Positions 16,588-41,844 of a DNA stretch of 64,000 bases are shown here, piece after piece. Below the pieces are notes generated by a model. That model saw nothing but the letters and a program-made list of their open reading frames with translations. It searched no databases and was not told the origin of the DNA. Position 1 is the first letter of the stretch, and the number at the start of each line of letters is the position of its first letter. The position numbers and the translations under genes are program-made. The stretch comes from a virus. Its lineage: Duplodnaviria > Caudoviricetes. The stretch is taken from positions 1 through 64,000 of IMG/VR virus record IMGVR_UViG_3300032312_002037; one strand, written 5' to 3'.

Positions 16588-17091
16588 TTAATTTAATTTA
16601 TTTTTGTCTTTTATTATATCTTCGATTGAAGGTTTTTGATTTGATAATTTTAATTCTTCTCTAACTTGCATAAGAATTTTACCTAAATGATTTTCACCTT
16701 TGCCATTACAAACACCCCAGTAAAAATCCCGCCACCAGTTACCCTCGATTAACTCTTGGTCTCCGGTAGATAGTAACATTTCTGATAAAGTTTCTTCTTT
16801 GAATTTTTGACGAACAGCCCAGTTCATAACTTCTAACTTCTTTTCATCCCAACCAGTTCTTAATTTCACTTTGGAACCAAGTCTTTTAACTTCAGCTGGA
16901 TTAATAACTTTAGCAATCATTTCACGAAAATCACCGGGTGTATAATATCTACCATTTATTAGTTGTTGATCATTGACCTTCATAGCCACATAAAAGTTTT
17001 CAACAGAGGGATATGTAATTCCTTGATGTTCTATCTTACACGGATAGAAATTGGATAAGAATCTATAACGACCTTCAAATTTATCAATCAT
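16588..17091 (-). CDS. NADAR (YbiA-like) family protein
   Basis: Motifs FLSNFYP, YPSVENFY, VRQKF, LIEGNWWRDFYWG..GENHLGKILMQVR. Start reassigned to MIDKF because the track start overlaps the tmRNA. Confidence 0.9.
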   Translation of the reverse strand: MIDKFEGRYRFLSNFYPCKIEHQGITYPSVENFYVAMKVNDQQLINGRYYTPGDFREMIAKVINPAEVKRLGSKVKLRTGWDEKKLEVMNWAVRQKFKEETLSEMLLSTGDQELIEGNWWRDFYWGVCNGKGENHLGKILMQVREELKLSNQKPSIEDIIKDKNKLN

Positions 17092-17137
17092 AGTTATTAT
17101 ATCAATCAAATTAATAAAGTTTAACTGTTTAAAATAA

Positions 17138-17159
17138 CAAAAGACCATCGCTGGTCTTT
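17138..17159 (-). terminator. Intrinsic terminator downstream of the tmRNA
   Basis: AAAGACCA-gcga-TGGTCTTT hairpin followed by a T-run on the minus strand. Confidence 0.75.
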
Positions 17160-17166
17160 GTTCTTG

Positions 17167-17548
17167 TGGAGATGACGTTGTACTGCCCAACGTGTCTTTT
17201 TCGGTTGTTAATAATTATTCATTCACAGGCGTAGTAAATTTTTATAAACTTACAAACTTTTTACTTTTTTTGAGAAACTCTAAAAAGTAACAAAAAACCA
17301 TTTCACTCTTTTATTCTTGTGTGAAACAAGTTGGAGAATTTTTTGATAATGAACTGTTGTTAGACAGTCATTAGATCTTCTACCAAGATCATGTTGTTTT
17401 GTAGTGCAAATACTAAATCTTCATTGCTAGCTACTTCGTTTGTTTTGCCATTTACGACTTTACCATCTAATTTATTAATCGGTCATACGACAACCCGATA
17501 CCCGCATAATCACCACCACTCCGCAAATCAATTCTAAAAAACATCCCC
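17167..17548 (-). ncRNA. ssrA: tmRNA (one-piece, about 382 nt)
   Basis: 5' GGGGATG pairs with 3' CATCTCC-A, giving a G3-U70 alanine determinant. The T-arm is ACGTTG-GGCAGTA-CAACGT. An internal UAAAU-GGC resume context opens a 29-codon tag at 17449-17360. It has its own promoter and terminator. Confidence 0.9.
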
Positions 17549-17567
17549 AAGTGTGTATATTATTCTA

Positions 17568-17598
17568 CAAATATATATATAATATTCGAAATATCAAA
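17568..17598 (-). promoter_or_regulatory. Bacteroidota-type promoter for the tmRNA
   Basis: Minus strand TTTG-N19-TATATTTG about 20 nt upstream of the mature 5' end. Confidence 0.7.
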
Positions 17599-17619
17599 AA
17601 AGTTTATAAATTTTAAAAA

Positions 17620-18072
17620 TTACCAAGGATAATCATCATCCTTATCATCTGTAACTACACCATCTTTATCATTATCATCTTCTAACATAAATTCAAATGT
17701 AATCATAGGTGAACCAGATTTAGTTTCCCACATTTCATAAGACGAAGAGTATTGAGCTAAAATATCTTTTTTAATTTTCTTAATAACTTCAAATACTTTA
17801 ACAATATCACTAAGTGATTCTCTTCTAGCAAACCGTGCTGTAATAGATAAATCTAATCCACTATTCTCAACATTAACATCTATATTACTATTATTGAACA
17901 TTGATCTTAAAAGATAACAAAGATGTGACATATCATCATCATCAGAATCATCTTCATCCTCACCTTTATATTCATCTTCTCTTGAATAATCATAATCGTC
18001 TTCGTAATCATATCCATCGATATCATCAAATCCCTCACGTTCAAATAATTGATTAAATTTTTTAAGTTTCAT
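17620..18072 (-). CDS. Acidic hypothetical protein with a CTS-like N-terminus
   Basis: Starts MKLKKFNQLFE and is D/E-rich. Confidence 0.7.
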   Translation of the reverse strand: MKLKKFNQLFEREGFDDIDGYDYEDDYDYSREDEYKGEDEDDSDDDDMSHLCYLLRSMFNNSNIDVNVENSGLDLSITARFARRESLSDIVKVFEVIKKIKKDILAQYSSSYEMWETKSGSPMITFEFMLEDDNDKDGVVTDDKDDDYPW

Positions 18073-19445
18073 TATAGTAAATCTATTTTTATGTATTCGG
18101 CGTCAAAATATACTTTCTGACTTACTTTGTGTTTGTTTAATAAGAATTGTAATGTTGTTAAAGCCTCATATGTTTCATCAATATAACCTTCTTCTAAATC
18201 ACATTGAATAAATGTGGTAGCTCTGTCAGACGCTATTTTAACATCAATACCAAACGGTGTTGCTTTTATATCGTTAATTAACTTACCATATTTTCTAATG
18301 ATTTCTTCATCAATTCCTACTTTTCTAACTGTTGGTAATGAATTCCAATCAACTTGAACACTAGCCTTAGCAAGTCTTTCAAGGAAATTAATATTTTGTC
18401 TTTCTTTACCCGTATGTTCACTATAATAACCAACAGATATGTTAGTACATTCAGCAATTTGTTCTAAAAATGAAGCAGAATCTGTGTATATACCTGTAGG
18501 ATCTAATGATAAATTAAGACCATTTGCGTTATATTGTTTAGCTAAAGCAGTTCCAAATTCATCAGAACAACAAGTTCTGCCTAATTGAGAAGTAATAACT
18601 GAACAAACATCTCTTCTATCAAAAGAAACACATCTCTTAATATTCTTAACATATTCAACTTGTTCATAAACAGAGGATAATAAACCCGAACCGATACCAC
18701 CTCTTTCTTCTCCCATAAAGAAATAATAAAGACCTGGTACATTATGAGCCATCATATATAACATAACAGCAACACCTGATTTATCATCTGCGCCTAATAT
18801 AGTAGAACCATCAGTATAAATAATTTCATCACCTTTATCATCTTTTTTAGAAAGAAGCTTAGTAATACCTTGTTTTCTATCAGCAGTATCTAAGTGAGAT
18901 GTAAACATAGTTGTTGGGTTCTCACCAATAATCTTATAATAGTTACCTACAATATCTTTATCTAATTTAGGCATAAAAGCCATTACTTCTTCTTCATGTC
19001 CATGAGGATATGTCTTAGTAACTAATGAAATAAAAGTACTTCTAACGTCTTTAGGATTATAATTAAAAGGCTCTGGTGTAATTCTATTAACAGCAATACT
19101 TTCAATTGAACCACCACCAGCTAATATATCATATTGTTCAATAAAATCTTTAATATCAGCCGTTTGAAAATAATTCCTAAAGTAGAATTTTAGAAAGTTT
19201 TCTATTTTCATAGGATGAACTTTACCATCAACAACACCATTAATTGTAGATGTAACATCTAAACAAGATTTTGTTTTAGATATATTAACATCACTAATTC
19301 CTAGACCATTATTATATTTAGAATTAGGTTCGTTTAACCAAAGCATTTCAAATGCGATGTAGCTATTCTCATCTTCTAAAACTTTTAATAAATCATGAAG
19401 TTCTTGAGAAAATTTAATTCTTATAGGTTCTTTAGTATCTGCCAT
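18072..19445 (-). CDS. M28/M20-family zinc metallopeptidase, copy 2, with an N-terminal extension
   Basis: Motifs SHLDT, GADDKSG, GEERG, SFDRR, TDSA, NISVGYYSEH; paralog of 2218-3306. Confidence 0.85.
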   Translation of the reverse strand: MADTKEPIRIKFSQELHDLLKVLEDENSYIAFEMLWLNEPNSKYNNGLGISDVNISKTKSCLDVTSTINGVVDGKVHPMKIENFLKFYFRNYFQTADIKDFIEQYDILAGGGSIESIAVNRITPEPFNYNPKDVRSTFISLVTKTYPHGHEEEVMAFMPKLDKDIVGNYYKIIGENPTTMFTSHLDTADRKQGITKLLSKKDDKGDEIIYTDGSTILGADDKSGVAVMLYMMAHNVPGLYYFFMGEERGGIGSGLLSSVYEQVEYVKNIKRCVSFDRRDVCSVITSQLGRTCCSDEFGTALAKQYNANGLNLSLDPTGIYTDSASFLEQIAECTNISVGYYSEHTGKERQNINFLERLAKASVQVDWNSLPTVRKVGIDEEIIRKYGKLINDIKATPFGIDVKIASDRATTFIQCDLEEGYIDETYEALTTLQFLLNKHKVSQKVYFDAEYIKIDLL

Positions 19446-19482
19446 TTTTTATTTTATTTTATATGTTATTATATATTAAATA

Positions 19483-19872
19483 TTAAACTACAATTTGATA
19501 TGAATTTGTATAATCTACTTTCACTTGACCATCATTCATACCTGATTCTTTCTTAACAAATCTACTTTGGCAATAAACAACAGTTGCTTTATCATCTTTA
19601 GAAGCTTTACTATTCTTTTTAGCCAATTGAGCGGCTAATTTAATAACTATTTCAGTAGGTAGATTCTCTCTAACACGAATAACAACATGACTACCTGGAA
19701 CACCTTTAACGTGCATCCAAATATCTTCTTTATCAGCAACATTAAAAGTTAGATGGTCATTAGATTTAGCATCTTTACCAACATAAACAACAAATCCTTC
19801 AATTTCTAATTTTTGAATATTAGGAAATTTATCTTTTTTAGATTCGTTAAATGAATTAAATTTCTTTATCAT
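19483..19872 (-). CDS. Stand-alone NFACT RNA-binding domain protein (NFACT-R/DUF814)
   Basis: VYVGKDAKSNDHLT..DIWMHVKGVPGSHVVI..AAQLAKKNSK. Start reassigned to MIKKFNSFNES. Confidence 0.9.
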   Translation of the reverse strand: MIKKFNSFNESKKDKFPNIQKLEIEGFVVYVGKDAKSNDHLTFNVADKEDIWMHVKGVPGSHVVIRVRENLPTEIVIKLAAQLAKKNSKASKDDKATVVYCQSRFVKKESGMNDGQVKVDYTNSYQIVV

Positions 19873-19956
19873 ACTGTATATATTAATTAGAAATTCTTTA
19901 AAAAGAAAAAAGACCCATAAAGGGTCTTTTTTCAATATTTCCAATATTACTATTGA

Positions 19957-21627
19957 TTAGTTTAATAACTGAGCAGCGTCAGTAACTACAATAGTCATGT
20001 ATTGTTTTTGTGGGTACCAACCAACTTCAGTTACAGCATATCTTGAACGTAACAACATTCTTGGAGCGAATGTAGCTTCAGAGATAACTGAGATAGACTG
20101 AGCCATTAAGTAAGGTACGAAAATGATACCTGGTTGGTCAGGGTTGTTCTTACGACCTAATACGATTCTGTTATCGTTATATCTCATATATGGATCTACA
20201 TAGATAGAGATGTCTCCGATTGAACCTACAGGGTATAATTGACCTTGTCCGTTTAATTTAGATTTAACTGGGTTAATTGTGTAACCAGCGATATCTTGTA
20301 AAGCAGCAGCAAGACCTCCGTTTGTGATAAGGTATTGAGCAGGACCAACACGACCTTCAGTAGCAATAAAGTTAGAAGCGTGAGCAATCTTAGTGATTAA
20401 CTTACGTTGTACAGCGTGAGTAGTCTCACCACCTACATTACCAGAAGTAGTAGCATAGTTAGTGTTTAAGTCAAAAATAGAAACACTTGAAGCATTTAAT
20501 GGAGCAGATGTTCTGTTAAGATCACCCATTTCGAAAATCTTAGCAACAATTTGTTTAGATATTGTTTGAGATAATTCGTTTACAAGGATAGATTCCATTT
20601 TTTGAACGATATCCATACCTGTGTTAGCTTTGATATCTTCGATTTCAGTTCTTCTAAGAGCTGAAGATACTTCGATAGTACCAACTGCAACAGTTTTAGA
20701 AGAAATTTTTGGTCCGATAACTCCAGAGTATGATTGATCATCAGCAAGACGACCCATTGGATATTGACCAGAAGATTGACCAGCAGCAGCAGATGTCCAG
20801 TTTGCAGAGAAACCTGGGATATGATCTTCTAAAGCAGATACTAAAGTAATAACTGGATTAGTAACGTTGATACCAGAAATTCTAACAATTGCTGAAACCA
20901 TTGTACCAGTTTGAGGGAATGTATTTAATGTAGCATCAAAAAAGTGAGGAGTAGCAAAGTTACCTGAAGTATTTGCTTGTCTGTAAGCTCTGAACATTGG
21001 TAAACCATCTATACGAGAGAATCCTAAGAATTCAACGATATTTGTTTTAGATGTAGGTTCAGTATTAGTTTTGTAAGCACCTGATGCAGTAAGACCGTAG
21101 AATAATCTACCACCAGATAAACCACCAGTAGTTTCTCTAAGTACTGCTAAACCATTAGCACCTGCAACGTCTAATACAATTTGTGCATCAATAGCTGCAA
21201 TATTATCAGCAGATAATTTGAATACTTGAGGTCTTTCGTTTGTTGTTGAATCGATATCATCATATTGAAAATCAATATAAAGTAAGTCGATTTTTGGACC
21301 TGGAGTTGGCTTTACAGCAACTAAATCCAAACCGATTGTTTGAGCAGCAATTTTCATTGCAACTGGAAGTAAGTTCTGACCTACGTCTCCTGAACCTGCT
21401 ACGTTACCGTTACCAGTTACGTTACCTGCTAATGAACCAATAACTGGATTCAATACAGATCCCATACCTGCTACGTTTGATGCGTTTACATACGCATTTT
21501 CATTGATTGAGTGATACTCAGCCATTTCTGACATCCATTCAACTCTATCTTCAGCTACGCCCATGTTCTCTAAAACTGGAGACCATTTCTTAACTGCTTT
21601 TGATTTGTCTATTCTAATGTGTGACAT
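19957..21627 (-). CDS. Major capsid protein (T4 gp23-like)
   Basis: 556 aa; KKWSPVLE, LDLVAVKPT, VYVDPY-type SIYVDPY, FVPYLM, PRMLLRSRYAV. Confidence 0.95.
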   Translation of the reverse strand: MSHIRIDKSKAVKKWSPVLENMGVAEDRVEWMSEMAEYHSINENAYVNASNVAGMGSVLNPVIGSLAGNVTGNGNVAGSGDVGQNLLPVAMKIAAQTIGLDLVAVKPTPGPKIDLLYIDFQYDDIDSTTNERPQVFKLSADNIAAIDAQIVLDVAGANGLAVLRETTGGLSGGRLFYGLTASGAYKTNTEPTSKTNIVEFLGFSRIDGLPMFRAYRQANTSGNFATPHFFDATLNTFPQTGTMVSAIVRISGINVTNPVITLVSALEDHIPGFSANWTSAAAGQSSGQYPMGRLADDQSYSGVIGPKISSKTVAVGTIEVSSALRRTEIEDIKANTGMDIVQKMESILVNELSQTISKQIVAKIFEMGDLNRTSAPLNASSVSIFDLNTNYATTSGNVGGETTHAVQRKLITKIAHASNFIATEGRVGPAQYLITNGGLAAALQDIAGYTINPVKSKLNGQGQLYPVGSIGDISIYVDPYMRYNDNRIVLGRKNNPDQPGIIFVPYLMAQSISVISEATFAPRMLLRSRYAVTEVGWYPQKQYMTIVVTDAAQLLN

Positions 21628-21708
21628 AATTTTGTTAATTTTTTTTTGTGTTTATCTATATATTATCCTTCGAAATTTCAATAATTTCAAGTGTGGATTT
21701 TTTATAGA

Positions 21709-24393: not shown

Positions 24394-24408
24394 ATAGAAT
24401 ACTCATAT

Positions 24409-26289
24409 ATGATAGAATTAAAAGAAGGTGATGTTTACGAAGGACAAATTGAGTTCTCAACAAACGGTAACGCATCATTAGTAGTGGAAGACAAGGAAGT
24501 CTTTATCTACAAGAAAAACACAGCCAACTCTTTAAACTTAGATAAAGTAAAGATTCAAATATTTAAGGCTGAAAGAAAATTAGAAGGAAAAGTCATTGAA
24601 GTTGTTTCAAGATTTAAGACTGAGTATGTCGGTAGAGTACAAATAGGTAAAAAAACAATATTTGTTGTTCCTGATAGTAATAAAGTTCCGGTAGACTTCT
24701 ATATTAAAGGCGGATTAAAAGCCGAACACGACCAAAAGGTTGTAGTTGAGTTAATAAAGTGGGAAGATACTAAATCACCACAAGGAAAAATCACAAGAGT
24801 TTTAGGAGATTCTGGAGATAATAATACAGAAATGAACTCAATTATGATTGAGTATGGTTTACCTATTGAATTTCCACAAGATGTTATCAACGAATCTTTC
24901 TTAGTGCCTGAAGTTATTACTGAAAAAGAAATCAATTCTCGTAAAGATATGAGAGGTATAACAACTTTAACAATCGATCCAGTTGATGCTAAAGATTTTG
25001 ATGATGCCTTATCAGTTAATATTATCAACGATAATAAGATTGAAGTAGGAGTTCACATTGCTGACGTAGGTCACTATGTTAAACCAGGAACTAAATTAGA
25101 CGATGAGGCTTTCAAAAGAGCCACATCAGTATATTTAGTTGACAGATGTGTTCCAATGTTACCAGAACGTTTAAGTAATGGTATATGTTCACTTAAACCA
25201 AACGAAGATAGATTGGCATTCTCTGTTATCTTTACTTTAGATAATGAAGGTAATATATTAAATACTTGGCAAGGTAAAACCGTTATTCACTCTGATAGAA
25301 GATATGCTTATGAAGAAGCTCAAGAAATCATCGAAGGTAATGATGGTAATTATTCAACTGAGATTAGATTACTTGATACTTTAGCTAGAAAGATTAGAAA
25401 GAAAAGAATCAAAGAAGGGTCCATTGAAATGGGTGGTATTGAAGTAAGATTCAAATTAGCTGAAGATAATAAGAAACCAATTGGTGTTTATTTCAAAGAA
25501 CAAAAAGAAGCTAACAAGTTAATTGAAGAATTTATGTTATTAGCTAACAAGTCAGTTGCTAAAACTTTATCAGAGGCTAGTTGGGCAAATGTATATAGAG
25601 TTCACGATACGCCAAATATGGAAAAGTTAAATGCTTTAGTTGGTGTTTGTAAAACGTTTGGATACGATATAGAAATATATGATGATTCAACTGAAATCAA
25701 AAAGACTCTAAATGGATTATTAAAAGAGATTAAAGAAACTCCTGAAGAAAATATGATTGAGACTTTAGTTACTAGATGCATGTCTAAGGCAACTTATACA
25801 ATTAAGAACATTGGTCACTATGGTTTAGGATTTACTCACTACTCTCACTTTACTTCACCAATCAGAAGATATCCTGATTTAATCACACATAGAATTTTAT
25901 TAGACTTTTTAGATAAGAAATCTCAAGGCAATCCTAGTAAGATTGAAGAGCAAGCCAAATGGTGTTCTGCTAGAGAATTGGTTGCGGCTAAAGCTCAAAG
26001 AGATTCAATTAAATACAAACAAGCTGAATATCTTTTAGATAAGATTGGGAAAGTATTTGATGGTATTGTTTCAGGTGTAACCGATTGGGGTATGTATGTT
26101 GAATTAATTGAAAGTAAATGTGAAGGAATGGTTAGATATCAATCTCTTGAAGGTAAATGGTCAGCTGATACAACTAATTACACTATAACAAGTGAAATGG
26201 GTGAAAAAATCAGATTAGGAGATCCTCTTAAAGTTGTAGTTAAGTCTGTGGACTTAGAAAGAAAACAAATAGATTTTACTTTATTGTAA
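24409..26289 (+). CDS. rnr: Ribonuclease R (RNB family 3'-5' exoribonuclease)
   Basis: Motifs TIDPVDAKDFDDALS, VHIADV, ATSVYL, IEEFMLLAN, HFTSPIRRYPDL; cold-shock domains and C-terminal S1. Confidence 0.95.
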   Translation: MIELKEGDVYEGQIEFSTNGNASLVVEDKEVFIYKKNTANSLNLDKVKIQIFKAERKLEGKVIEVVSRFKTEYVGRVQIGKKTIFVVPDSNKVPVDFYIKGGLKAEHDQKVVVELIKWEDTKSPQGKITRVLGDSGDNNTEMNSIMIEYGLPIEFPQDVINESFLVPEVITEKEINSRKDMRGITTLTIDPVDAKDFDDALSVNIINDNKIEVGVHIADVGHYVKPGTKLDDEAFKRATSVYLVDRCVPMLPERLSNGICSLKPNEDRLAFSVIFTLDNEGNILNTWQGKTVIHSDRRYAYEEAQEIIEGNDGNYSTEIRLLDTLARKIRKKRIKEGSIEMGGIEVRFKLAEDNKKPIGVYFKEQKEANKLIEEFMLLANKSVAKTLSEASWANVYRVHDTPNMEKLNALVGVCKTFGYDIEIYDDSTEIKKTLNGLLKEIKETPEENMIETLVTRCMSKATYTIKNIGHYGLGFTHYSHFTSPIRRYPDLITHRILLDFLDKKSQGNPSKIEEQAKWCSARELVAAKAQRDSIKYKQAEYLLDKIGKVFDGIVSGVTDWGMYVELIESKCEGMVRYQSLEGKWSADTTNYTITSEMGEKIRLGDPLKVVVKSVDLERKQIDFTLL

Positions 26290-31082: not shown

Positions 31083-32168
31083 ATGAATATAAAATTAGAG
31101 TACATTTGGCTTGATGGTTCTAACCCTCAACAACTTAGAAGTAAAACTAAAATCACCGAAGCAATTGATTCAATGAACGCGTCAGACTATCCAGTATGGT
31201 CTTTTGATGGAAGTTCAACATTACAAGCTAAGTCAGGTAAGGATAAAAATACTGACTGTCTATTAAAACCTGTTTTTGTAACAAATGATCCATTTAGAGG
31301 CAAAGGCAGCAAATTAGTTTTATGTGAAGTTCTTAATCCAGACAGCACACCACACGAAACAAACAACAGAAGAAAATTAGAAGAAAGAGTTGAAGAATTG
31401 AACATCAATGGCGGTGAGAAATCAGAACTTCCTTGGTTCGGTTGGGAACAAGAATATACTCTTACACACAAACCAATGACTCCATTTGGCATTGGTGAAG
31501 GTATTCCTTTAGGATTTACTTTAGATCCAAGTAAAGAACCTAGACCTCAAGGTGACTATTACTGTGGTATCGGATCAGATAATGTGGTTGGTAGAGAAAT
31601 TGTTGAAGAACATATGGATATTTGTATGGAAATTGGTTTAGATATCTCTGGTATCAATGCTGAGGTTCTCTTAGGACAATGGGAATATCAAATTGGACCA
31701 GTTACTGCTTTAGAAGGATCTGATCAATTATGGGTTTCTAGATACTTGTTACAAAGAGTTGCTGAAAAACATAATGTTAAAGTTTCTCTACACCCTAAAC
31801 CATTAAAAGGTGATTGGAACGGAACAGGATGTCACGTTAACTTTTCTACTAAAGAAATGAGAGAAGAAGGTGGTTTAGAAATAATTAAAGACACTATGGA
31901 GAAATTGGACAGAAACCAAAAAGAGCATATTGCTGTTTATGGATTGCACAATAGCGAAAGACTTACCGGTGCTCACGAAACTTCAAGTATCAATGAGTTT
32001 AGTTATGGATTCTCTACAAGAGATACTTCTATTAGAATTCCAGCTCAGGCGATCATTGAAGGAAAAGGATATTTCGAAGATAGAAGACCAGCATCAAACT
32101 GTGATCCTTATTTAGTATCTGATAGAATGTTAGAAACTGTTTATTCTGAAGTTGAAACCGAAGCATAA
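31083..32168 (+). CDS. glnII: Glutamine synthetase (type II-like)
   Basis: Motifs LEYIWLDG, WSFDGSST, FGWEQEY, GINAEV..QWEYQIGP, HPKP..DWNGTGCHVNFST, YFEDRRPASNCDPY. Confidence 0.92.
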   Translation: MNIKLEYIWLDGSNPQQLRSKTKITEAIDSMNASDYPVWSFDGSSTLQAKSGKDKNTDCLLKPVFVTNDPFRGKGSKLVLCEVLNPDSTPHETNNRRKLEERVEELNINGGEKSELPWFGWEQEYTLTHKPMTPFGIGEGIPLGFTLDPSKEPRPQGDYYCGIGSDNVVGREIVEEHMDICMEIGLDISGINAEVLLGQWEYQIGPVTALEGSDQLWVSRYLLQRVAEKHNVKVSLHPKPLKGDWNGTGCHVNFSTKEMREEGGLEIIKDTMEKLDRNQKEHIAVYGLHNSERLTGAHETSSINEFSYGFSTRDTSIRIPAQAIIEGKGYFEDRRPASNCDPYLVSDRMLETVYSEVETEA

Positions 32169-32329
32169 CATAAATGACAAAAAAGAAAACCTCTCAATTG
32201 AGAGGTTTTTTTATTTTAAAGATGTTTTGAATTTTTTCCTTCCTTCTTTTCTGTCGAGAAGGAAATATAGTTATAGGTATAGAACTCACACCAAATGCAG
32301 GCTCCATTACTATATCAAATGTTTTTAGA

Positions 32330-36771: not shown

Positions 36772-36817
36772 AAAATAATTAAAGTTTAAATATATATTAA
36801 TTTTTATATATAGATGT

Positions 36818-37216
36818 ATGAGGTATTTAAAAACATTTGAGTCTTATATTGATAATGAACTAATATCTAACATTGAGTTTTATAAAGTTCCTGCCGGTGA
36901 TAAAACTATTTTCAAGCCATCATTCGGTGCTGAGAGAGGTGAAACCAATTTTTATCAATTAAGATTGGATGGAAAACCTGTAGTAGAAATAGAAGTTAAT
37001 CCAAATTCAAACTATGGTAAACCCGAAATAATGTCAGCATTCCCTGATATTAAAGGTAGAGGTTTAGGTGAATATCTAGCTAAGAAGATTTTAGATATTT
37101 ATTTAGAAGATGAAGTCTTTGTAAGATGTACAAAAGATAGTAAGAAATTCTGGCAAAGATGTGGTGCTACAGTTGTTGATCCAAAAGACCCTTACTTATT
37201 ACACTTTATTAAATAA
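36818..37216 (+). CDS. GNAT-like acetyltransferase with a CTS-like N-terminus
   Basis: Acetyl-CoA motif KGRGLGEYL and KFWQRCG; starts MRYLKTFESY. Confidence 0.65.
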   Translation: MRYLKTFESYIDNELISNIEFYKVPAGDKTIFKPSFGAERGETNFYQLRLDGKPVVEIEVNPNSNYGKPEIMSAFPDIKGRGLGEYLAKKILDIYLEDEVFVRCTKDSKKFWQRCGATVVDPKDPYLLHFIK

Positions 37217-37254
37217 TCGGCAAAAGGAACTTTTCGTGTTTTAATATATAAGAT

Positions 37255-37953
37255 ATGAAAACATGTAGTAAATGTAAAGAAATTAAAAATCTTTCAGAAT
37301 TTTCAAAAAGATCTGACTCTAAAGATGGTTATAGATCACAGTGTAGAAAATGTAGAAACACTCAAGAAGCTAAAGATAGAGTGAATAGATACTACAAAAA
37401 CAATCGTGATGTATTATTAGATAAAAGCAAAGAAAGAAAATTAAAAAAATCTGATCCAAATTCAAAAATCAGAACAATTAGAAAGATGTTTGAGTCTTGT
37501 GATGAAAATCAGAGTGTTTGTACAAAATGTATGAATATAAAAAACAAGAAAAATTTCATAAAGGATAAAAGTAGGAAAAACGGTTTATCGGCTCAATGTA
37601 ATGATTGTAAAAATAAATACTACAAAAATAAGAAAAAAGATGATATTATATTCAAATTATCAACAACCATAAGAAGTATGATATCATCTTACATAAAATC
37701 AAATGGTATTAAAAAGTCAAAAAAATCTGAAGAAATAATTGGTTGTAAATTTACAGATTTAAAAATTCATTTAGAATTAAAATTTAGAGATGGCATGAAT
37801 TGGGAAAACTATGGATTATGGCACATAGACCATATAATACCTATAAGCTATGCTAAATCTGAAGAGGAAATATACAAACTAAATCATTATTCAAACTTTC
37901 AACCATTATGGGCAAAAGATAATTTATCCAAAGGAAATAGATTTATTGGATAG
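37255..37953 (+). CDS. HNH-type homing endonuclease (endonuclease VII-like)
   Basis: Two CxxC..CxxC fingers; WHIDHIIP..NHYSNFQPLW..N.SKG. Confidence 0.85.
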   Translation: MKTCSKCKEIKNLSEFSKRSDSKDGYRSQCRKCRNTQEAKDRVNRYYKNNRDVLLDKSKERKLKKSDPNSKIRTIRKMFESCDENQSVCTKCMNIKNKKNFIKDKSRKNGLSAQCNDCKNKYYKNKKKDDIIFKLSTTIRSMISSYIKSNGIKKSKKSEEIIGCKFTDLKIHLELKFRDGMNWENYGLWHIDHIIPISYAKSEEEIYKLNHYSNFQPLWAKDNLSKGNRFIG

Positions 37954-38557
37954 GACAACTTGTTGAAGTGTATATAAATTTCCAATCTCTTTTTATTTTA
38001 ACACCTAAAGATAAGGCGGCAGTATAAATATCCTCTAAACATTCACCATCAGCACCACCTACTATAGTAACCGCCTCATTTCTTAAACTTAAAAGTAAAT
38101 TATATAACTTTTTACTAAGATGGTGCCATTTATGATTATTACCAACATAAACAATATATGTTCCTTCTTTAGTTGGAAATATATCACCTTTCTTTAATAA
38201 ACTATTATCTTCTTTATCAGAAATTTCGTTATAAACTTCTTTATCTAGTATCTTCTTATAAAAGTCAGCATCTACTTTATAGTTATATCTTTTTTCAATA
38301 AGTTCTTTTTGATTAGGAAAGTGATAAAGATCTTTATGAATAGGAATTACTGGAGTTTCATCATATAAATAATCCTTATCTACATTCTTACCATCTATAT
38401 GATTATCCCACACTTGGTAAACACTTTGAAAATTATTACAATACTTCTTTAATTCATTAAGATACATTTCTGAAAAGAACTTTCTAAATGATTTCTGAAC
38501 ATCAACTATAATTAATGTTCCATTACTATGACTCTCAAATGTTTTAAGGAATTTCAT
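37943..38557 (-). CDS. Cysteine-hydrolase (isochorismatase-like) fold protein with a CTS-like N-terminus
   Basis: LIIVDVQ and VTIVGGADGECL; likely start MKFLKTFESH. Confidence 0.65.
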   Translation of the reverse strand: MKFLKTFESHSNGTLIIVDVQKSFRKFFSEMYLNELKKYCNNFQSVYQVWDNHIDGKNVDKDYLYDETPVIPIHKDLYHFPNQKELIEKRYNYKVDADFYKKILDKEVYNEISDKEDNSLLKKGDIFPTKEGTYIVYVGNNHKWHHLSKKLYNLLLSLRNEAVTIVGGADGECLEDIYTAALSLGVKIKRDWKFIYTSTSCPIQ

Positions 38558-38626
38558 AAAGTATATATTAAATAAAAAACCCATCAAAATATTTGATGGG
38601 TTTTAATTCTTTGAATATTTTATAGA

Positions 38627-39214
38627 TTAAAGAGGTAATTCTTCTTCACCTTCTTTATTTTCTTCTTCACCTTGTGTTTCTTGCTCTTCTTCACCTTGTG
38701 CTGGAGCTTGAGCTTCTCCTTGAGCAGGTGCTTGAGCTTGTCCTTGTGCTGGTTCTTCAAATTCGCCTTGTGCTGGAGCTTCTTGAGCTTGAGCAGGTGC
38801 TTCTTCAGTTTGAGCTGGTTGAGCCTGAGCTTGAGGAGCTTCTTGTGTTTGTGCTTGAGGATGTGCTTGAGGTTGAGCCTCTACTTGAACTTGAGGTTGA
38901 GTCTGAGGCTGTGTTTGAGTTTGTGATTGACCACCACCCATTAAAGCTCCACCAGGAATTTTCTCAACATCTAAGTTATCCATGTTAATAAACTTTACAA
39001 TTTCTTCAGCAATATCGACATCACCAAAGAACGTGCGTAGGTTTTTACCTGTAGTGTCTTTTACTTTTTTCACATAAGCATTGATTAAAGATTGAGGAAT
39101 ATCAATCATTGTCTTCACTTTGTAAATATCGTTTACTTGAAGAACCGATTCTTTAATGATTTCTTCTCTGTTCTTTTTAATACGATAGTTTTCATATGTT
39201 CTAATATGCTTCAT
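38627..39214 (-). CDS. Hypothetical protein with a Q/A/P/E low-complexity tail and CTS-like N-terminus
   Basis: Starts MKHIRTYENY; QAQEAPAQ repeats. Confidence 0.75.
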   Translation of the reverse strand: MKHIRTYENYRIKKNREEIIKESVLQVNDIYKVKTMIDIPQSLINAYVKKVKDTTGKNLRTFFGDVDIAEEIVKFINMDNLDVEKIPGGALMGGGQSQTQTQPQTQPQVQVEAQPQAHPQAQTQEAPQAQAQPAQTEEAPAQAQEAPAQGEFEEPAQGQAQAPAQGEAQAPAQGEEEQETQGEEENKEGEEELPL

Positions 39215-39273
39215 TTGTATTTGAATATTTTTTATAGATTATATATTAAGTATTAAAACTCATTTTTTATCAT

Positions 39274-39789
39274 TTAATTAATCAATAATAATCCTAGTAC
39301 CAATCCTATGATAGCAACTCCTCCACCGAGACCACCAACAACCATTTTGGTTTTCATTTTTCTTAATTGTAAACTTTTTTCGTCAATAACTTGTTGTCTA
39401 TTAGCAACTTCACTTTCAAGAATAAGAATCTTTTTAAGATAAGAAGCAACCTCTCCTTGTAATGCTTTAATCTGTAAATCTTTATTATTAATAGATTCTT
39501 TCAATTTAGCAATTTCCATTTTCTGTGAAGCAATTACTTGTTCTTTATCATTGATAACTTTAACACAAACTGAATCATATTGACCAATCTGAGTACTTTG
39601 CTTTTCTAAAAGATTCAATAAATCAGTACTATTGTCAAGTGACTGTGCTTGTTCAATAGTCATTACAATAACTTGCTGACCATTTGAATCTGTTTCAAAT
39701 TTTGGATAATCTATTTTAGCTTGTGAGTATTGTGAGTAAGCACTTAAACTCAACACTAAACCAACTATAAGTGATAAAAACTTTTTCAT
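39274..39789 (-). CDS. Exported coiled-coil protein with a C-terminal TM (spanin-like candidate)
   Basis: Signal peptide, coiled coil and C-terminal hydrophobic helix. Confidence 0.55.
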   Translation of the reverse strand: MKKFLSLIVGLVLSLSAYSQYSQAKIDYPKFETDSNGQQVIVMTIEQAQSLDNSTDLLNLLEKQSTQIGQYDSVCVKVINDKEQVIASQKMEIAKLKESINNKDLQIKALQGEVASYLKKILILESEVANRQQVIDEKSLQLRKMKTKMVVGGLGGGVAIIGLVLGLLLIN

Positions 39790-39790
39790 A

Positions 39791-40207
39791 TTAATTTTTT
39801 GTTTTATTTTTTAATGATTCTAAAAGAGCATCTCCTGTTCTATTAGGAGGATTATTCTTAATCTCTTTAATCTTACGTTGAGTTTCCGCTAAATTACCTC
39901 TTAACTTATCTAAATTGGCTTTAGATTTACTAGCTTCAATTTCAGCTTTCTTAGTCTGAGCTTCTTGTTTAGCTAATTCAGCTTGTAATTTAATATCTAA
40001 CTGTCTAAGACTATCAGACTTTGCTCTCCAAGATGTTATTTCTAAATCAACTGCTTTCTTTTGGTTTTCTAAATCTTTGAATTCTTGTTTCAATTGTTTA
40101 ACTCTTTCTTTTGATGCTTTATCATCAGAAAAAAACCACTTAAAACCAAATAAAAGTGTTAATCCAAGTAATACTAATATCAAAATTGACTTAATGTCTA
40201 ATTTCAT
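39791..40207 (-). CDS. N-anchored coiled-coil membrane protein (i-spanin/Rz-like candidate)
   Basis: N-terminal TM followed by a long coiled coil. Confidence 0.55.
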   Translation of the reverse strand: MKLDIKSILILVLLGLTLLFGFKWFFSDDKASKERVKQLKQEFKDLENQKKAVDLEITSWRAKSDSLRQLDIKLQAELAKQEAQTKKAEIEASKSKANLDKLRGNLAETQRKIKEIKNNPPNRTGDALLESLKNKTKN

Positions 40208-40313
40208 AAAAACTTCTTATTTTTGAAATATATATTATTTTACTAAACCGACCTTTTATTTTTGAGAAATTTTATATATATTTGTAAATAATTTAAAAGC
40301 AAGAAACTAAAAT

Positions 40314-40832
40314 ATGAGCTACAAAAGATTAATATCATTCGACTTCGACGATACATTATGTCACACACCAAAGCCTGAAGAAGGTGAGAAAGTCTGGCTA
40401 GAAAAAACAGGAACTGTTTGGCCCTATAACGGATGGTGGGGTCGTCCTGAGAGCATCGATCCTGAAATCTTTTACGTTCCACTAAATCAATGGGTATATG
40501 CTAAATATTTAGAAGCAGTAGCTGATACCGATAACTATGTTATATTAGCAACAGGTCGTCTTAAAAAGAAAGAAGGCATGCTTGATAATGTTATGAAGAT
40601 TCTAAATCAACACAATTTATCATTTGATGAGGTTCACTTAAACTGGGGTGGTGATACATACAACTTCAAAACTAAATTGTTTGAAGAGAAAATCGAAGAA
40701 CTTGGTGTAAAAGAATTTATACTTTTTGACGATAGACACGAGCATCTAATTAAGTTTGAAGAATGGGCTGAGGAACAACATGTGAATGTAACAGTAATAG
40801 ATGTTATAAATAAAACCACTAAGAATTTTTAA
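40314..40832 (+). CDS. HAD-family phosphatase (Swiss-Army-Knife RNA-repair-like HAD)
   Basis: SFDFDDTL, ATGR, FDDRHEH motifs; TATATTTG box at 40277-40284. Confidence 0.75.
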   Translation: MSYKRLISFDFDDTLCHTPKPEEGEKVWLEKTGTVWPYNGWWGRPESIDPEIFYVPLNQWVYAKYLEAVADTDNYVILATGRLKKKEGMLDNVMKILNQHNLSFDEVHLNWGGDTYNFKTKLFEEKIEELGVKEFILFDDRHEHLIKFEEWAEEQHVNVTVIDVINKTTKNF

Positions 40833-40872
40833 GATGATAGAAAGGAGCACTTTTTAATATATAAATAAAAAA

Positions 40873-41529
40873 GTGCTCATGAATTTAGACGAAAGAAAAG
40901 AAAAGAAAAGATTATATGATAAGGAATATCGAAGAAAGAATAGAGAAAGATTAAATAAACAAAAAAAAGAGTGGTCTAAAAAAAATCCCGATAAAATGGA
41001 GGAAATTAGACAAAAAAATAAAGAATCTAAGAAAATAAAAGATAAAGAATATGCTATAAAAAATAAAGAAAAATTAAATAAAATAAAAAAAGAGTGGTCA
41101 AAAAATAACCAAGACAAAGTAAAAAAAGCTAATTCAAAGTATCATAAAGATAAAATGAAGACTGATAGCTTATATAAGTTAAGGCATGTTATTTCTAGTA
41201 TAATCAGAGACTCTTTAAAAAGAAGTGGTTATTCTAAAAAATATAAAAGTGTAGAAATATTAGGATGTCAGATAGAGGAATTTAAAATACACATAGAATC
41301 TAAATTCGAACCTTGGATGAAATGGGAAAATTACGGCAATCCAATTGACGGAATATATGAAAAGAATAAAACCTGGGACATTGACCACATTAAACCACTA
41401 AGATGCGCATCAACAGAAGAAGATATAATATCATTAAATCACTATACAAATCTTCAACCTTTGTGTAGCTACTTTAATAGATTTATAAAAAGAGATAAAA
41501 CAACAAAAGAAACAAACTTCTCAAAATAA
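40873..41529 (+). CDS. HNH-type homing endonuclease (endonuclease VII-like)
   Basis: Basic repeats, then WDIDHIKP..NHYTNLQPL..N..K. Confidence 0.85.
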   Translation: MLMNLDERKEKKRLYDKEYRRKNRERLNKQKKEWSKKNPDKMEEIRQKNKESKKIKDKEYAIKNKEKLNKIKKEWSKNNQDKVKKANSKYHKDKMKTDSLYKLRHVISSIIRDSLKRSGYSKKYKSVEILGCQIEEFKIHIESKFEPWMKWENYGNPIDGIYEKNKTWDIDHIKPLRCASTEEDIISLNHYTNLQPLCSYFNRFIKRDKTTKETNFSK

Positions 41530-41559
41530 TATATAATACTCAGAAAAATAAAATAATTT

Positions 41560-41844
41560 ATGGCAACAATTACTAAAAAGAAGACCGAATCAAAGGTAGA
41601 AGAAATTTTATCAAAACCATATAAGTTGATTCTACACAATGATGATTACAATACATTTGATTGGGTTATTACATGTTTAATGAAAATTTGTAAACATGAA
41701 AATGAACAAGCTAATCAATGTGCTCACATCATACACTATAACGGAAAATGTGATGTTAAATACGGAGACATTGAAACTATCTCAAATATGAAAGACAAGT
41801 TAAGGAATGCTGGTTTAAGTGCTACAATGGAATCTAACGATTAA
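41560..41844 (+). CDS. clpS: ATP-dependent Clp protease adaptor ClpS
   Basis: YKLILHNDDYNTFDWV..AHIIHYNGKCDVKYG. Confidence 0.92.
   Translation: MATITKKKTESKVEEILSKPYKLILHNDDYNTFDWVITCLMKICKHENEQANQCAHIIHYNGKCDVKYGDIETISNMKDKLRNAGLSATMESND

What the first reader, a model, noticed from the sequence alone, without database searches (positions are those of the whole stretch)
16588..41844. Dispersed phage-encoded translation quality-control kit: tmRNA, RNase R, NFACT-R, ClpS, NADAR
Seen in the window: tmRNA, a stand-alone NFACT-R domain about 2 kb away, RNase R, ClpS and NADAR. Established: RNase R degrades non-stop mRNA in the tmRNA-SmpB pathway; NFACT-R is a domain of RqcH/Rqc2 ribosome-quality-control factors; ClpS is the N-degron adaptor; NADARs act on ADP-ribosylated or damaged nucleotides. 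Inference: the phage counters host defences that cleave mRNA or tRNA or stall ribosomes by supplying its own rescue, decay and degradation routing. No smpB is seen here.
Basis: inference. Interest (0 to 1): 0.7.

Follow-up and report, generated by a model that had tools for sequence, protein, structure and literature searches.

The report
Megaphage tmRNA plus scattered rescue-type genes
This piece of a giant (>600 kb) Bacteroidota-type phage carries a genuine but unusual ribosome-rescue RNA (tmRNA) that standard finders miss, plus real RNase R-type, stand-alone NFACT-R, ClpS and NADAR genes, but these are separately transcribed and separately inherited, so nothing shows they act as one kit.

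Summary
Observation confirmed. NADAR, solo NFACT-R (true length 129 aa), an RNase R-type exoribonuclease and ClpS all pass Pfam cut-offs. ARAGORN and Rfam find no tmRNA. A 382-nt tmRNA (17167-17548, minus strand) is nevertheless shown by 34 distinct homologues: G3:U70 acceptor stem, covarying T-arm and long-range helix 2 (96% of cells paired against 33-47% in slid controls), and a start-less 27-30-codon tag frame open in 34 of 34. No smpB lies on this 82-kb fragment. Complete relatives encode SmpB, a CCA-adding enzyme, ClpP and a ClpC-like ATPase, and no canonical tmRNA.

Interpretation partly supported. A phage trans-translation core is real, but it was already reported for huge phages (Al-Shayeb 2020). 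The "kit" is not supported:
- The genes are separate units inside the head-gene module.
- SmpB and NADAR occur in all eight complete or near-complete Mahaphage-type genomes checked, and tmRNA in at least seven. RNase R and ClpS occur in one subclade only, and NFACT-R in a smaller one.
- Gene positions are not conserved outside this lineage.
- The RNase R lacks the K-rich tail that E. coli needs for tmRNA coupling.
- Phage NADARs are proven anti-DarT1 enzymes.

The solo NFACT-R keeps the 50S-binding/catalytic D-x-W-x-H motif and is the most interesting part. This scan met the same gene set in at least eight related genomes, with the same verdict.

The parts
16588..17091 (-). NADAR-domain protein (167 aa from the ATG at 17091; the ORF list extends it to 17190 from a TTG)
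   Evidence: PF08719 at 92.1 bits. TIGR02464 at 88.6 bits, above the 73.7 cut-off, and phrog_1017. Lies directly downstream of the tmRNA in nearly all relatives.
17140..17159 (-). Intrinsic terminator-like hairpin just after the tmRNA 3' end
   Evidence: 8-bp stem AAAGACCA/TGGTCTTT followed by a T-rich tail.
17167..17548 (-). Divergent one-piece tmRNA (382 nt). The acceptor stem is GGGGAUG/CAUCUCC with G3:U70 and discriminator A. The T-arm is ACGUUG-GGCAGUA-CAACGU. The tag frame follows UAAAU and reads GKTNEVASNEDLVFALQNNMILVEDLMTV, then UAA.
   Evidence: There are 34 distinct homologues. 26 of 47 pairs show compensatory changes. 96.3% of cells are paired against 33-47% in slid controls. 0 of 500 shuffles reach the observed values. 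The tag frame is open for 27-30 codons in 34 of 34, while the other frames close within 2-22 codons.
17568..17598 (-). Bacteroidota-type promoter motif TTTG-N19-TAtaTTTG, 20 nt upstream of the tmRNA 5' end
   Evidence: Pattern search (14 matches in the window against 5.5 expected; 0 of 100 shuffles reach 14). Conserved in LR745206 and LR756502. That this is the Bacteroidota sigma-A consensus is from my own knowledge.
17620..18072 (-). Acidic 150-aa protein with the N-terminal leader MKLKKFNQLFE; no family hit
   Evidence: Syntenic with NFACT-R and the peptidase in relatives.
18072..19445 (-). 457-aa protein with an M20/PepT-like metallopeptidase domain (residues about 141-377)
   Evidence: phrog_4191 'peptidase' at 2.2e-62 and a weak PepT-like NCBIfam hit. 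Moves together with NFACT-R in rearranged relatives L153 and L126.
19483..19872 (-). Stand-alone NFACT-R domain protein (129 aa) with an N-terminal leader MIKKFNSFNE and an invariant D50-x-W52-x-H54 and PGSH62VV
   Evidence: PF05670. PDB sequence hits: RqcH 8e-17, CCDC25 1e-7. AlphaFold model pTM 0.72 with Foldseek top hits RqcH, FBPS and CCDC25, TM 0.68-0.75. Orthologue alignment A3. 619 homologues, those listed mostly 129 aa.
19905..19933 (-). Strong terminator-like hairpin (12-bp stem) between the major head gene and NFACT-R
24409..26289 (+). RNase R-type 3'-5' exoribonuclease (626 aa; CSD1-CSD2-RNB-S1) without the N-terminal HTH or the C-terminal K-rich tail
   Evidence: Pfam RNB 369.8 bits with CSD2, OB_RNB and S1. 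TIGR02063 at 647 bits (cut-off 598), aligned to model positions 63-709 of 711. E. coli-type model PRK11642 aligned only to positions 95-725 of 813.
40314..40832 (+).
   Evidence: PF10307 HAD_SAK_1 at 31.5 bits (cut-off 25.6). phrog_415 'polynucleotide kinase' region.
41560..41844 (+). ClpS-like adaptor (94 aa)
   Evidence: PF02617 at 69.1 bits. The alignment to E. coli ClpS keeps N-D-D and the HY-x-GK histidine. Scores fall below all NCBIfam ClpS equivalog cut-offs.

Best explanation
The window is a fragment of a >600-kb Mahaphage-type megaphage of Bacteroidota.

**Trans-translation core.** The tmRNA at 17167-17548 is transcribed from its own host-type promoter and trimmed. It is given CCA, because the gene encodes ACAA rather than ACCA, and is charged with alanine through G3:U70. 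Together with a phage SmpB it would enter stalled ribosomes and add a 29-residue tag ending in a hydrophobic V or A. This keeps ribosomes available during a long infection in which much mRNA is cut. The SmpB is encoded about 130-150 kb away in complete relatives.

**The other genes.** These are independent accessory genes that happen to sit in the head-gene module of this lineage.
- The RNase R-type exonuclease works as a general degrader of structured RNA.
- ClpS re-routes Clp proteolysis. The relatives also carry ClpP paralogues and a ClpC-like ATPase.
- NADAR reverses guanine ADP-ribosylation, a counter-defence.
- The solo NFACT-R binds the large ribosomal subunit through its DWH motif and perhaps hydrolyses stranded peptidyl-tRNA.

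**What is shown and what is inferred.** Shown: gene identities, tmRNA structure and covariation, the tag frame, and presence or absence and synteny in relatives. Inferred: aminoacylation, tagging, the fate of tagged proteins, and every biochemical activity.
For: **tmRNA**
- Acceptor-stem variants GGGGAUG/CAUCUCC, GGGGGUG/CACCUCC, GGGGCUG/CAGCUCC and GGGGAAG/CUUCUCC always keep G3:U70.
- T stem and long-range helix 2 covary.
- The tag frame is open in 34 of 34 sequences, with indels in multiples of three.
- It has its own promoter and terminator.

**Partners in relatives**
- SmpB is in LR745206, LR756502 and a 476-kb IMG/VR genome. None of these has an Rfam-level canonical tmRNA.
- A CCA-adding enzyme is present, as are ClpP in 1-3 copies and a two-ring ClpC-like ATPase.

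**Independence of the other genes**
- Nested distribution and non-conserved positions.
- In LR756502 the RNase R gene sits about 160 kb from the tmRNA.
- In L153, L126 and L177 the NFACT-R block is separated from tmRNA-NADAR.

**Literature**
- tmRNA and SmpB in huge phages: PMC7162821.
- The DWH motif of RqcH NFACT-R is needed for 50S binding: 10.1101/2020.09.03.281279.
- Solo NFACT-R Jlp2 is a His-dependent release factor: 10.1101/2025.09.04.673968.
- Phage NADARs counter DarT1: PMC11825919.
- Phage ClpS as proteolysis hijack: PMC7824862.
Against: - No expression, aminoacylation or tagging data exist for this tmRNA.
- The T-loop (GGCAGUA) and the missing encoded CCA are atypical, and the pseudoknots were not established.
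- SmpB is not on this contig.
- The clade sample for the presence/absence matrix is small and phylogenetically non-independent: three Lak genomes count as one lineage. RNB and ClpS co-occur perfectly in it (4 present, 4 absent), which a functional link would also produce.
- NFACT-R, the peptidase, tmRNA and NADAR are adjacent in almost every close relative. This is compatible with a local functional module as well as with plain synteny.
Confidence: 0.68

Rival explanations
1. One reading: the five genes are one functional counter-defence kit. It rescues ribosomes, destroys cut mRNA and routes products to proteases when host defences cleave mRNA or tRNA.
For: - All parts exist.
- Complete relatives add SmpB, a CCA-adding enzyme, 3-5 RNA-ligase-family genes, ClpP and a ClpC-like ATPase.
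- The window also has a HAD_SAK_1 RNA-repair-type phosphatase.
- RNB and ClpS co-occur in the eight genomes checked.
- rnr-smpB adjacency is common in Firmicutes genomes, seen here as host flanks in 'phage' records.
Against: - There is no shared operon or strand.
- Distribution is nested rather than joint, and positions are not conserved in LR756504 or the Lak phages.
- The RNase R lacks the K-rich domain needed for tmRNA coupling in E. coli (PMC3949413).
- NADAR has a proven DNA-directed anti-DarT1 role in phages (PMC11825919).
- No RtcB is present.
- No experiment links any of these genes to a defence system.
Confidence: 0.12
2. The solo NFACT-R is a virion-packaged internal head protein. 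It would be cleaved after its N-terminal leader and injected with the DNA. It would act as a nucleic-acid or ribosome binder at the start of infection, not as part of a late quality-control pathway.
For: - It lies immediately after the major head gene.
- Its N-terminus MIKKFNSFNE matches a leader shared by six other family-less proteins of the window (MKLKKFNQLFE, MKHLRKFEE, MRYLKTFES, MKFLKTFES, MKHIRTYEN, MKHIKKFNE).
- The leader is conserved in orthologues and is disordered in the model (residues 1-13, pLDDT below 50).
- The NFACT-R fold of CCDC25 binds dsDNA (PDB 7eof and 8woh among the top fold hits).
- The leader resembles the T4 internal-protein targeting sequence (my own knowledge).
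Against: - The leader pattern was defined after looking at the sequences.
- No virion proteomics exist.
- The invariant DWH motif points to the ribosome rather than to DNA (10.1101/2020.09.03.281279).
- The 12-bp terminator between the capsid gene and NFACT-R suggests separate regulation.
Confidence: 0.25
3. The phage tmRNA is not mainly a rescue device. It would be a competitor of the host tmRNA that replaces the host degron with a long phage-specific tag. That tag would either spare tagged proteins or send them to the phage's own ClpC-like/ClpP machine, with ClpS tuning the choice.
For: - The tag is 27-30 residues with a conserved internal block (EDLV-x-ALQNN) in 34 sequences. A C-terminal degron alone would not need that much conserved sequence.
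- The related LR756504 tmRNA also has a long tag (24 residues, read).
- The phage encodes ClpP paralogues, a ClpC-like ATPase and ClpS.
- ClpS is known to inhibit ClpAP degradation of ssrA-tagged proteins in E. coli (my own knowledge).
Against: - The tag still ends in hydrophobic A or V like ordinary degrons.
- Part of the conserved tag sequence is also constrained by RNA helices that covary within it (helices at columns 129-158 and 171-187).
- There are no data on the fate of tagged proteins.
Confidence: 0.2

Closest known systems
One-piece bacterial tmRNA (SsrA, Rfam RF00023) with SmpB, and the tmRNA/SmpB genes reported in huge phages (Al-Shayeb et al. 2020, PMC7162821; older phage examples in PMC4131195)
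   Same: - About 380 nt, with a tRNA-like domain and a G3:U70 acceptor stem.
- T-arm and long helix 2 joining the two ends.
- Internal start-less tag frame ending in a hydrophobic residue and UAA.
- An ACUAAGCCUGUAAA block that resembles, from my memory of the E. coli sequence, a conserved tmRNA block.
- An SmpB gene in complete relatives.
- The Lak phages and LR756504 of the same clade have Rfam-detectable tmRNAs (48-65 bits). The LR756504 tag starts alike (DNVN... against GNVN...).
   Different: - Scores below every Rfam tmRNA model and is missed by ARAGORN.
- The T-loop is GGCAGUA, not the usual UUCRANY type.
- The T stem has 6 bp.
- The 3' end is encoded as ACAA or ACUA. ACCA occurs in only 1 of 34.
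- The tag has 27-30 residues rather than about 10.
RNase R (TIGR02063; E. coli Rnr)
   Same: CSD1-CSD2-RNB-S1 core. It passes the NCBIfam RNase_R equivalog cut-off and scores far above the RNase II models.
   Different: [quoted passage not shown] Its domain architecture is therefore that of RNase II.
NFACT-R domain of bacterial RqcH, and the solo NFACT-R proteins Jlp2/CCDC25
   Same: - Same fold (TM 0.68-0.75; rmsd 1.9 A to FBPS over 114 columns).
- D-x-W-x-H and PGSHV motifs are kept.
- It stands alone like Jlp2/CCDC25.
   Different: - No NFACT-N, HhH or coiled-coil parts, so it cannot be an RqcH-type tailing factor.
- It is closer in sequence to bacterial RqcH (8e-17) than to CCDC25 (1e-7).
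- It lacks the C-terminal coiled coil of CCDC25/Jlp2.
- It carries a phage-specific N-terminal leader.
- No PHROG family matches it.
ClpS N-degron adaptor; phage-encoded ClpS noted in jumbo phages (PMC7824862)
   Same: Passes the Pfam ClpS cut-off. The N-D-D and H residues of the alpha-amino pocket align with E. coli ClpS.
   Different: - Scores fall below all NCBIfam ClpS equivalog cut-offs.
- Positions equivalent to T38 and M40 are N and F.
- No Clp_N (ClpA/ClpC N-domain) docking partner is encoded by the relatives.
- The control Bacteroides genome has no ClpS of its own.
Phage NADAR anti-DarT factor AdfN (PMC11825919) and YbiA-type NADAR
   Same: Single-domain NADAR in a phage. Present in every Mahaphage genome checked.
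   Different: It scores over the cut-off of the YbiA-like 'ribofla_fusion' model, a branch in which that paper found almost no phage members. No DarT link was tested.

Membership tests
tmRNA (SsrA) | 7-bp acceptor stem with the G3:U70 alanine identity pair and discriminator A | tested here: met
   Four covarying stem variants, all with G3:U70, across 34 sequences.
tmRNA (SsrA) | T-arm next to the acceptor 3' strand | tested here: met
   The 6-bp stem has 5 of 6 pairs with compensatory changes, and 97.9% of cells are paired. The loop GGCAGUA is not the canonical T-loop sequence.
tmRNA (SsrA) | Long-range helix 2 joining the 5' and 3' parts | tested here: met
   Helices at columns 23-29/373-379, 37-46/359-368 and 47-53/347-352. 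Eleven pairs show double changes.
tmRNA (SsrA) | Internal tag reading frame without a start codon, ending in a hydrophobic residue and a stop | tested here: met
   27-30 codons open in 34 of 34 sequences, indels in threes, ending in V or A then UAA/UAG. The other frames close in 2-22 codons. The exact resume codon (GGC after UAAAU/C) is inferred.
tmRNA (SsrA) | Pseudoknots PK1-PK4 | tested here: inconclusive
   RNAalifold cannot predict pseudoknots. Only a hairpin at columns 54-78 in the PK1 region and two helices in the tag region were recovered.
tmRNA (SsrA) | Encoded or added 3' CCA | tested here: not met
   The gene reads A-CAA. ACCA occurs in only 1 of 34 sequences. CCA must be added after transcription. 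Relatives encode a PolyA_pol/CCA-adding family enzyme.
tmRNA (SsrA) | Score over the Rfam gathering threshold, or ARAGORN detection | tested here: not met
tmRNA (SsrA) | Cognate SmpB | tested here: met
   Not on this 82-kb fragment. Present at 167-177 bits in LR745206, LR756502 and the 476-kb relative, which lack any other tmRNA.
tmRNA (SsrA) | Alanylation and trans-translation activity | not testable with these tools
   Needs biochemistry.
RNase R | CSD-RNB-S1 core scoring over the RNase_R equivalog cut-off | tested here: met
   TIGR02063 at 647.2 bits against a 597.85 cut-off.
RNase R | N-terminal HTH and C-terminal K-rich domain (the features that set RNase R apart from RNase II and couple it to tmRNA-SmpB) | tested here: not met
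   The alignment covers model positions 63-709 of 711 and 95-725 of 813. The protein ends at the S1 domain (PMC3949413).
RqcH/NEMF (NFACT) tailing factor | NFACT-N, HhH and coiled-coil-M domains in front of NFACT-R | tested here: not met
   The 129-aa protein matches only RqcH residues 447-552.
Solo NFACT-R (Jlp2/CCDC25-like) | Stand-alone NFACT-R fold | tested here: met
   PF05670 over cut-off. Foldseek probability 1.00 to CCDC25, RqcH and FBPS.
Solo NFACT-R (Jlp2/CCDC25-like) | Conserved histidine of the D-x-W-x-H motif (Jlp2 H44, CCDC25 H41) | tested here: met
   DIWMH aligns with RqcH DIWLH and is invariant in 10 orthologues. Equivalence with Jlp2 H44 is inferred from the motif, not from a displayed alignment.
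Solo NFACT-R (Jlp2/CCDC25-like) | Peptidyl-tRNA release activity on large subunits | not testable with these tools
   Needs biochemistry.
ClpS | ClpS fold/profile with the N-degron pocket residues | tested here: met
   PF02617 at 69 bits. NDD and H align with E. coli ClpS. That these are the pocket residues is from my own knowledge.
ClpS | A ClpA/ClpC N-domain partner | tested here: not met
   No Clp_N in five relatives. Their ClpC-like ATPase shows no Clp_N, but only 649 of its about 709 residues were scanned and the first 60 or so were not. A host partner remains possible.
NADAR | NADAR domain over cut-off | tested here: met
One 'translation quality-control kit' (a system) | Co-transcription or a shared regulatory unit | tested here: not met
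   Different strands, own promoter and terminators, and head genes in between.
One 'translation quality-control kit' (a system) | Joint presence or absence and conserved linkage across relatives | tested here: not met
   Nested distribution, with positions dispersed in LR756504 and the Lak phages. Linkage holds only inside the close clade.

The most novel reading that the evidence does not exclude
The 129-aa solo NFACT-R would be the first prokaryotic or viral counterpart of yeast Jlp2: a histidine-dependent factor that binds split 50S subunits at the A-site finger and releases stranded peptidyl-tRNA. Bacteroidota hosts seem to lack RqcH. There it would give the phage a second rescue tier, for 50S subunits, beside its own tmRNA-SmpB for 70S ribosomes. 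It may be delivered in the virion through its leader peptide.
Probability: 0.15. Interest if true: 0.75.

Novelty: new variant of a known kind. Interest (0 to 1): 0.4.

Why it matters
Huge phages were already known to carry tmRNA and SmpB. This lineage shows that the standard detectors (ARAGORN, Rfam) miss a whole family of phage tmRNAs, with a long conserved tag, an odd T-loop and no encoded CCA. Surveys of phage translation genes therefore undercount them, and SmpB genes in such genomes look orphaned.

The stand-alone NFACT-R with an intact DWH motif is a cheap, testable candidate for a bacterial-world Jlp2-type release factor. The negative result also matters. Reading neighbouring translation-flavoured genes as one system is not justified here.

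Tried and rejected
- **ARAGORN and Rfam.** ARAGORN on the window and on 21 related loci, and Rfam at gathering score and at E<=10, found no tmRNA here. The only hint was an 8.6-bit local hit at the 3' end in LR756502.
- **Covariance model.** I did not build one. The RNA (about 380 positions; alignment of 413 columns) exceeds the 400-column limit and the calibration time limit. blastn and RNAalifold served instead.
- **NFACT-R outside the clade.** The search for related loci and the search for homologous proteins returned only close relatives, at 66% identity or more among those listed. Linkage of NFACT-R to tmRNA in unrelated phages could therefore not be tested.
- **GenBank 'phage' hits.** Most tblastn hits for NFACT-R, RNase R and SmpB were host contigs or prophage flanks from Listeria, Staphylococcus, Enterococcus and Klebsiella. 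I discounted them.
- **attP remnant.** Rejected. The gene is full length and conserved, has its own promoter and tag frame, and is accompanied by a phage SmpB.
- **Small protein gene.** Rejected. The tag region has no in-frame start, and a 1-nt indel upstream in LR745206 breaks the frame.
- **Other partners.** RtcB, ClpX and Clp_N searches in relatives were negative.
- **Host RqcH and ClpS.** Their absence rests only on the Bacteroides thetaiotaomicron control rows.
- **Leader pattern.** My first regular expression for the leader found nothing. The second was written after seeing the sequences.

Full report
**What the window is.** The 64-kb window belongs to an 81.9-kb IMG/VR record rated 14% complete. 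Its nearest GenBank relatives, at about 70-80% nucleotide identity, are the 634.8-kb and 642.4-kb uncultured phages LR745206 and LR756502. According to Al-Shayeb et al. 2020 (PMC7162821), genomes above 634 kb belong to the Mahaphage clade and are predicted to infect Bacteroidetes. The motif TTTG-N17-23-TAnnTTTG occurs 14 times against 5.5 expected. From my own knowledge this is the Bacteroidota promoter consensus, and it fits that host. The finding's range lies in the head-morphogenesis module: major head protein 19957-21627, head maturation protease 21709-23826, portal 26784-28484, large terminase 41872-44019, a clamp loader and DNA methyltransferases.

**The protein genes.** All four are real.
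- NADAR scores 92 bits on Pfam and also passes the TIGR02464 cut-off.
- NFACT-R scores 59.5 bits on PF05670.
- The RNB protein scores 370 bits for RNB with CSD2, OB_RNB and S1. It passes the NCBIfam RNase_R equivalog at 647 bits (cut-off 598) and scores far above the RNase II models.
- ClpS scores 69 bits on Pfam but falls under all NCBIfam ClpS equivalog cut-offs.

Two start codons need correcting. NADAR probably starts at the ATG at 17091. NFACT-R starts at 19872 and gives 129 aa. Its homologues listed in the 5.8-billion-protein set are mostly 129 aa. A 12-bp terminator hairpin after the capsid gene also lies inside the longer ORF.

**The tmRNA.** ARAGORN and Rfam find nothing, even at E<=10 on the 600-bp gap. 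Read on the minus strand, 17548->17167 begins GGGGAUG and ends CAUCUCC-A, giving a 7-bp acceptor stem with G3:U70. The arm ACGUUG-GGCAGUA-CAACGU lies directly before the 3' strand.

blastn against loci fetched with two conserved 15-mers found about 50 homologous places in IMG/VR. Of these, 34 are distinct and full length, at 68-93% identity. Across them the acceptor stem occurs as GGGGAUG/CAUCUCC, GGGGGUG/CACCUCC, GGGGCUG/CAGCUCC and GGGGAAG/CUUCUCC, always with G3:U70.

RNAalifold recovers the acceptor stem, the T-arm, a three-part long-range helix joining the two ends (the tmRNA helix 2 layout) and several hairpins. 26 of 47 pairs show compensatory changes. Counted on the alignment, 96.3% of cells pair against 33-47% when partners are slid by 1-3 columns. 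135 cells show double changes against 13-32 in the slid controls, and 0 of 500 shuffles reach any observed measure. The structure was derived from the same alignment, which inflates the contrast somewhat. The margin is large all the same.

After a conserved UAAAU/C, a frame with no start codon stays open for 27-30 codons in 34 of 34 sequences. Its indels come in threes, and it ends in V or A followed by UAA or UAG. The other two frames close after 2-22 codons. In the window the tag reads GKTNEVASNEDLVFALQNNMILVEDLMTV.

A host-type promoter motif lies 20 nt upstream (17598-17568) and a terminator hairpin just downstream (17159-17140). The gene encodes A-CAA after the stem. ACCA occurs in only one of 34, so CCA must be added.

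**Partners elsewhere in the genome.** SmpB is absent from this fragment. It is present, full length, in LR745206, LR756502 and a 476-kb IMG/VR genome, about 130-150 kb from the tmRNA. None of these genomes holds a canonical tmRNA at Rfam's threshold. The hits were tRNAs plus one 8.6-bit match at the 3' end of the divergent gene. The divergent tmRNA is therefore the only candidate partner of the phage SmpB.

The same genomes also encode:
- a CCA-adding-family enzyme;
- one to three ClpP paralogues;
- a two-ring ClpC-like ATPase in which no Clp_N domain was detected;
- three to five RNA-ligase-family genes.

They encode no RtcB and no ClpX. The last 18 kb of the window's own record holds no tRNA.

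**Is it a kit?** Three tests speak against it.

*Organisation.* The tmRNA is its own transcription unit. NFACT-R, an M20/PepT-like peptidase and an acidic 150-aa protein form a block after the capsid-gene terminator. RNase R lies on the opposite strand between protease and portal. ClpS lies 22 kb away beside the terminase.

*Synteny.* In close relatives the order capsid, NFACT-R, peptidase, p150, tmRNA, NADAR, methyltransferase is kept. In L153 and L126, however, the NFACT-R block is inverted away from tmRNA-NADAR. In L177 it is absent from 9.9 kb upstream, and L108 lacks NFACT-R. In LR756502 the RNase R gene sits about 160 kb from the tmRNA.

*Distribution over complete or near-complete Mahaphage-type genomes at Pfam sensitivity*:

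| Gene | Genomes holding it |
|---|---|
| SmpB | all eight (LR745206, LR756502, the 476-kb genome, LR756504, LR756501, Lak-A1, Lak-B5, Lak-C1) |
| NADAR | all eight |
| RNB | first four only |
| ClpS | first four only |
| NFACT-R | first three only |

- LR756504 and the Lak phages have Rfam-detectable tmRNAs (48-65 bits). ARAGORN still misses them.
- In those genomes tmRNA, SmpB, NADAR, RNB and ClpS lie hundreds of kilobases apart, in no shared order.
- This is a nested pattern that single gains on a tree explain.
Nor is it joint inheritance, and the sample amounts to only four or five independent lineages.

**Gene-by-gene mechanism.**

*RNase R.* Sequence places it with RNase R, but the protein starts at model position 63 and ends with the S1 domain. 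It thus lacks the HTH and the K-rich tail. E. coli RNase R truncated at residue 723, without that tail, fails to be recruited to tmRNA-rescued ribosomes and fails to degrade non-stop mRNA (PMC3949413). A general RNA-decay role is as likely as a coupled one.

*ClpS.* The alignment with E. coli ClpS keeps N-D-D and the histidine of HY-x-GK. Iyer et al. read phage ClpS as an adaptor that feeds targets to host ClpAP (PMC7824862).

*NADAR.* Phage NADARs remove DarT1 ADP-ribose from guanine in DNA and protect infection (PMC11825919). NADARs also reverse guanosine ADP-ribosylation in RNA (PMC11833690). A counter-defence role is plausible, but it is not a translation-quality-control role.

*NFACT-R.* It matches RqcH residues 447-552 (8e-17) and CCDC25 (1e-7). 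The AlphaFold model (pTM 0.72) finds RqcH, FBPS and CCDC25 as its only significant folds. D50-x-W52-x-H54 and PGSH62VV are invariant in ten orthologues. In B. subtilis RqcH the NFACT-R domain touches the A-site finger, and mutation of its DWH motif abolishes 50S binding (10.1101/2020.09.03.281279). In yeast the solo NFACT-R protein Jlp2 releases peptides from ribosome-bound peptidyl-tRNA, and this needs H44 (10.1101/2025.09.04.673968). I infer from the H-x-D context that H44 is the same histidine. The phage protein is therefore a candidate 50S binder and possibly a release factor.

Two cautions apply:
- CCDC25 uses the same fold to bind dsDNA (PDB 7eof, 8woh).
- The phage protein carries an N-terminal leader (MIKKFNSFNE) shared with six other family-less proteins of the window. 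The leader is disordered in the model and resembles T4 capsid-targeting sequences (my own knowledge). The protein may be packed in the head.

**Novelty and context.** tmRNA and SmpB in huge phages are published (PMC7162821). Older phage tmRNAs are listed in PMC4131195. What is new:
- this tmRNA family escapes both standard detectors;
- it has a long, conserved tag and an atypical T-loop;
- a stand-alone NFACT-R occurs in phages. It has no PHROG family, and the 13 papers that mention NFACT-R include no phage study.

After I had formed this reading, the scan's notebook showed the same gene set noted in at least eight related genomes. Each follow-up concluded that the tmRNA is real and the kit is not shown. 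A separate note on this very tmRNA gave the same coordinates.

**Verdict.** Interest is moderate.

Noticed in passing
window 17620-18072(-), 19483-19872(-), 28591-29064(-), 36818-37216(+), 37943-38557(-), 38627-39214(-), 60263-60685(-): Seven proteins begin with a similar leader, M-[KRI]-x-[LIK]-[KR]-[KT]-[FY]-[ENS], for example MKHLRKFEE, MRYLKTFES and MIKKFNSFNE. Six have no Pfam family, and the seventh is the NFACT-R protein. The leader looks like a T4-type capsid-targeting or propeptide signal ending at a Glu. The pattern was written after seeing the sequences.
   Followed up: partly
window 31083-32168(+): A 361-aa glutamine synthetase-like protein (Gln-synt_N and Gln-synt_C over Pfam cut-offs) sits among late genes. 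Just downstream are weak leader-peptide-like Rfam hits (32126-32290, far below threshold), probably a terminator region.
   Followed up: no
window 40314-40832(+): A stand-alone HAD phosphatase of the 'Swiss Army Knife RNA repair' family (PF10307), matching the phosphatase part of phage polynucleotide kinases. Complete relatives carry 3-5 RNA-ligase-family genes. RNA repair may be a better-founded theme than the proposed kit.
   Followed up: partly
window 18072-19445(-): A 457-aa protein with an M20/PepT-like peptidase core (phrog_4191) always travels with NFACT-R, including in relatives where the block is inverted. A functional pair, release factor plus peptidase, is conceivable but untested.
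   Followed up: partly
window 21709-23826(-): The head maturation protease homologue carries a long run of about 13-residue repeats (YSEYLAENLDKNI and variants) after the protease domain. It looks like a fused scaffold.
   Followed up: no
window 29838-30365(+); 37255-37953(+); 40873-41529(+): One ORF has a TnsA-like endonuclease N-terminal domain. Two lysine-rich ORFs end, by eye, in H-N-H-like motifs and look like homing-endonuclease inserts in the late region.
   Followed up: no
window 56024-56107, both strands: The Rfam mir-181 model just passes its threshold on both strands (46 bits against 45.5). A near-perfect palindromic hairpin in a phage is surely not a microRNA. It may be one of the recombination-site hairpins noted elsewhere in this genome.
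   Followed up: no
L304 (LR756504 280507-280863), L305-L307 (Lak-A1, Lak-C1, Lak-B5): The tmRNAs of LR756504 and the Lak megaphages pass Rfam's threshold (48-65 bits) but are missed by ARAGORN. The LR756504 gene encodes ACCA and a 24-residue tag, DNVNSFEQSILNELFAPVEMAVAA, read by eye. Long tags seem to be a trait of the whole clade.
   Followed up: partly
control rows: The Bacteroides thetaiotaomicron control genome has neither ClpS nor any NFACT-R domain. The phage may therefore bring functions its host phylum lacks. This rests on one genome only.
   Followed up: no
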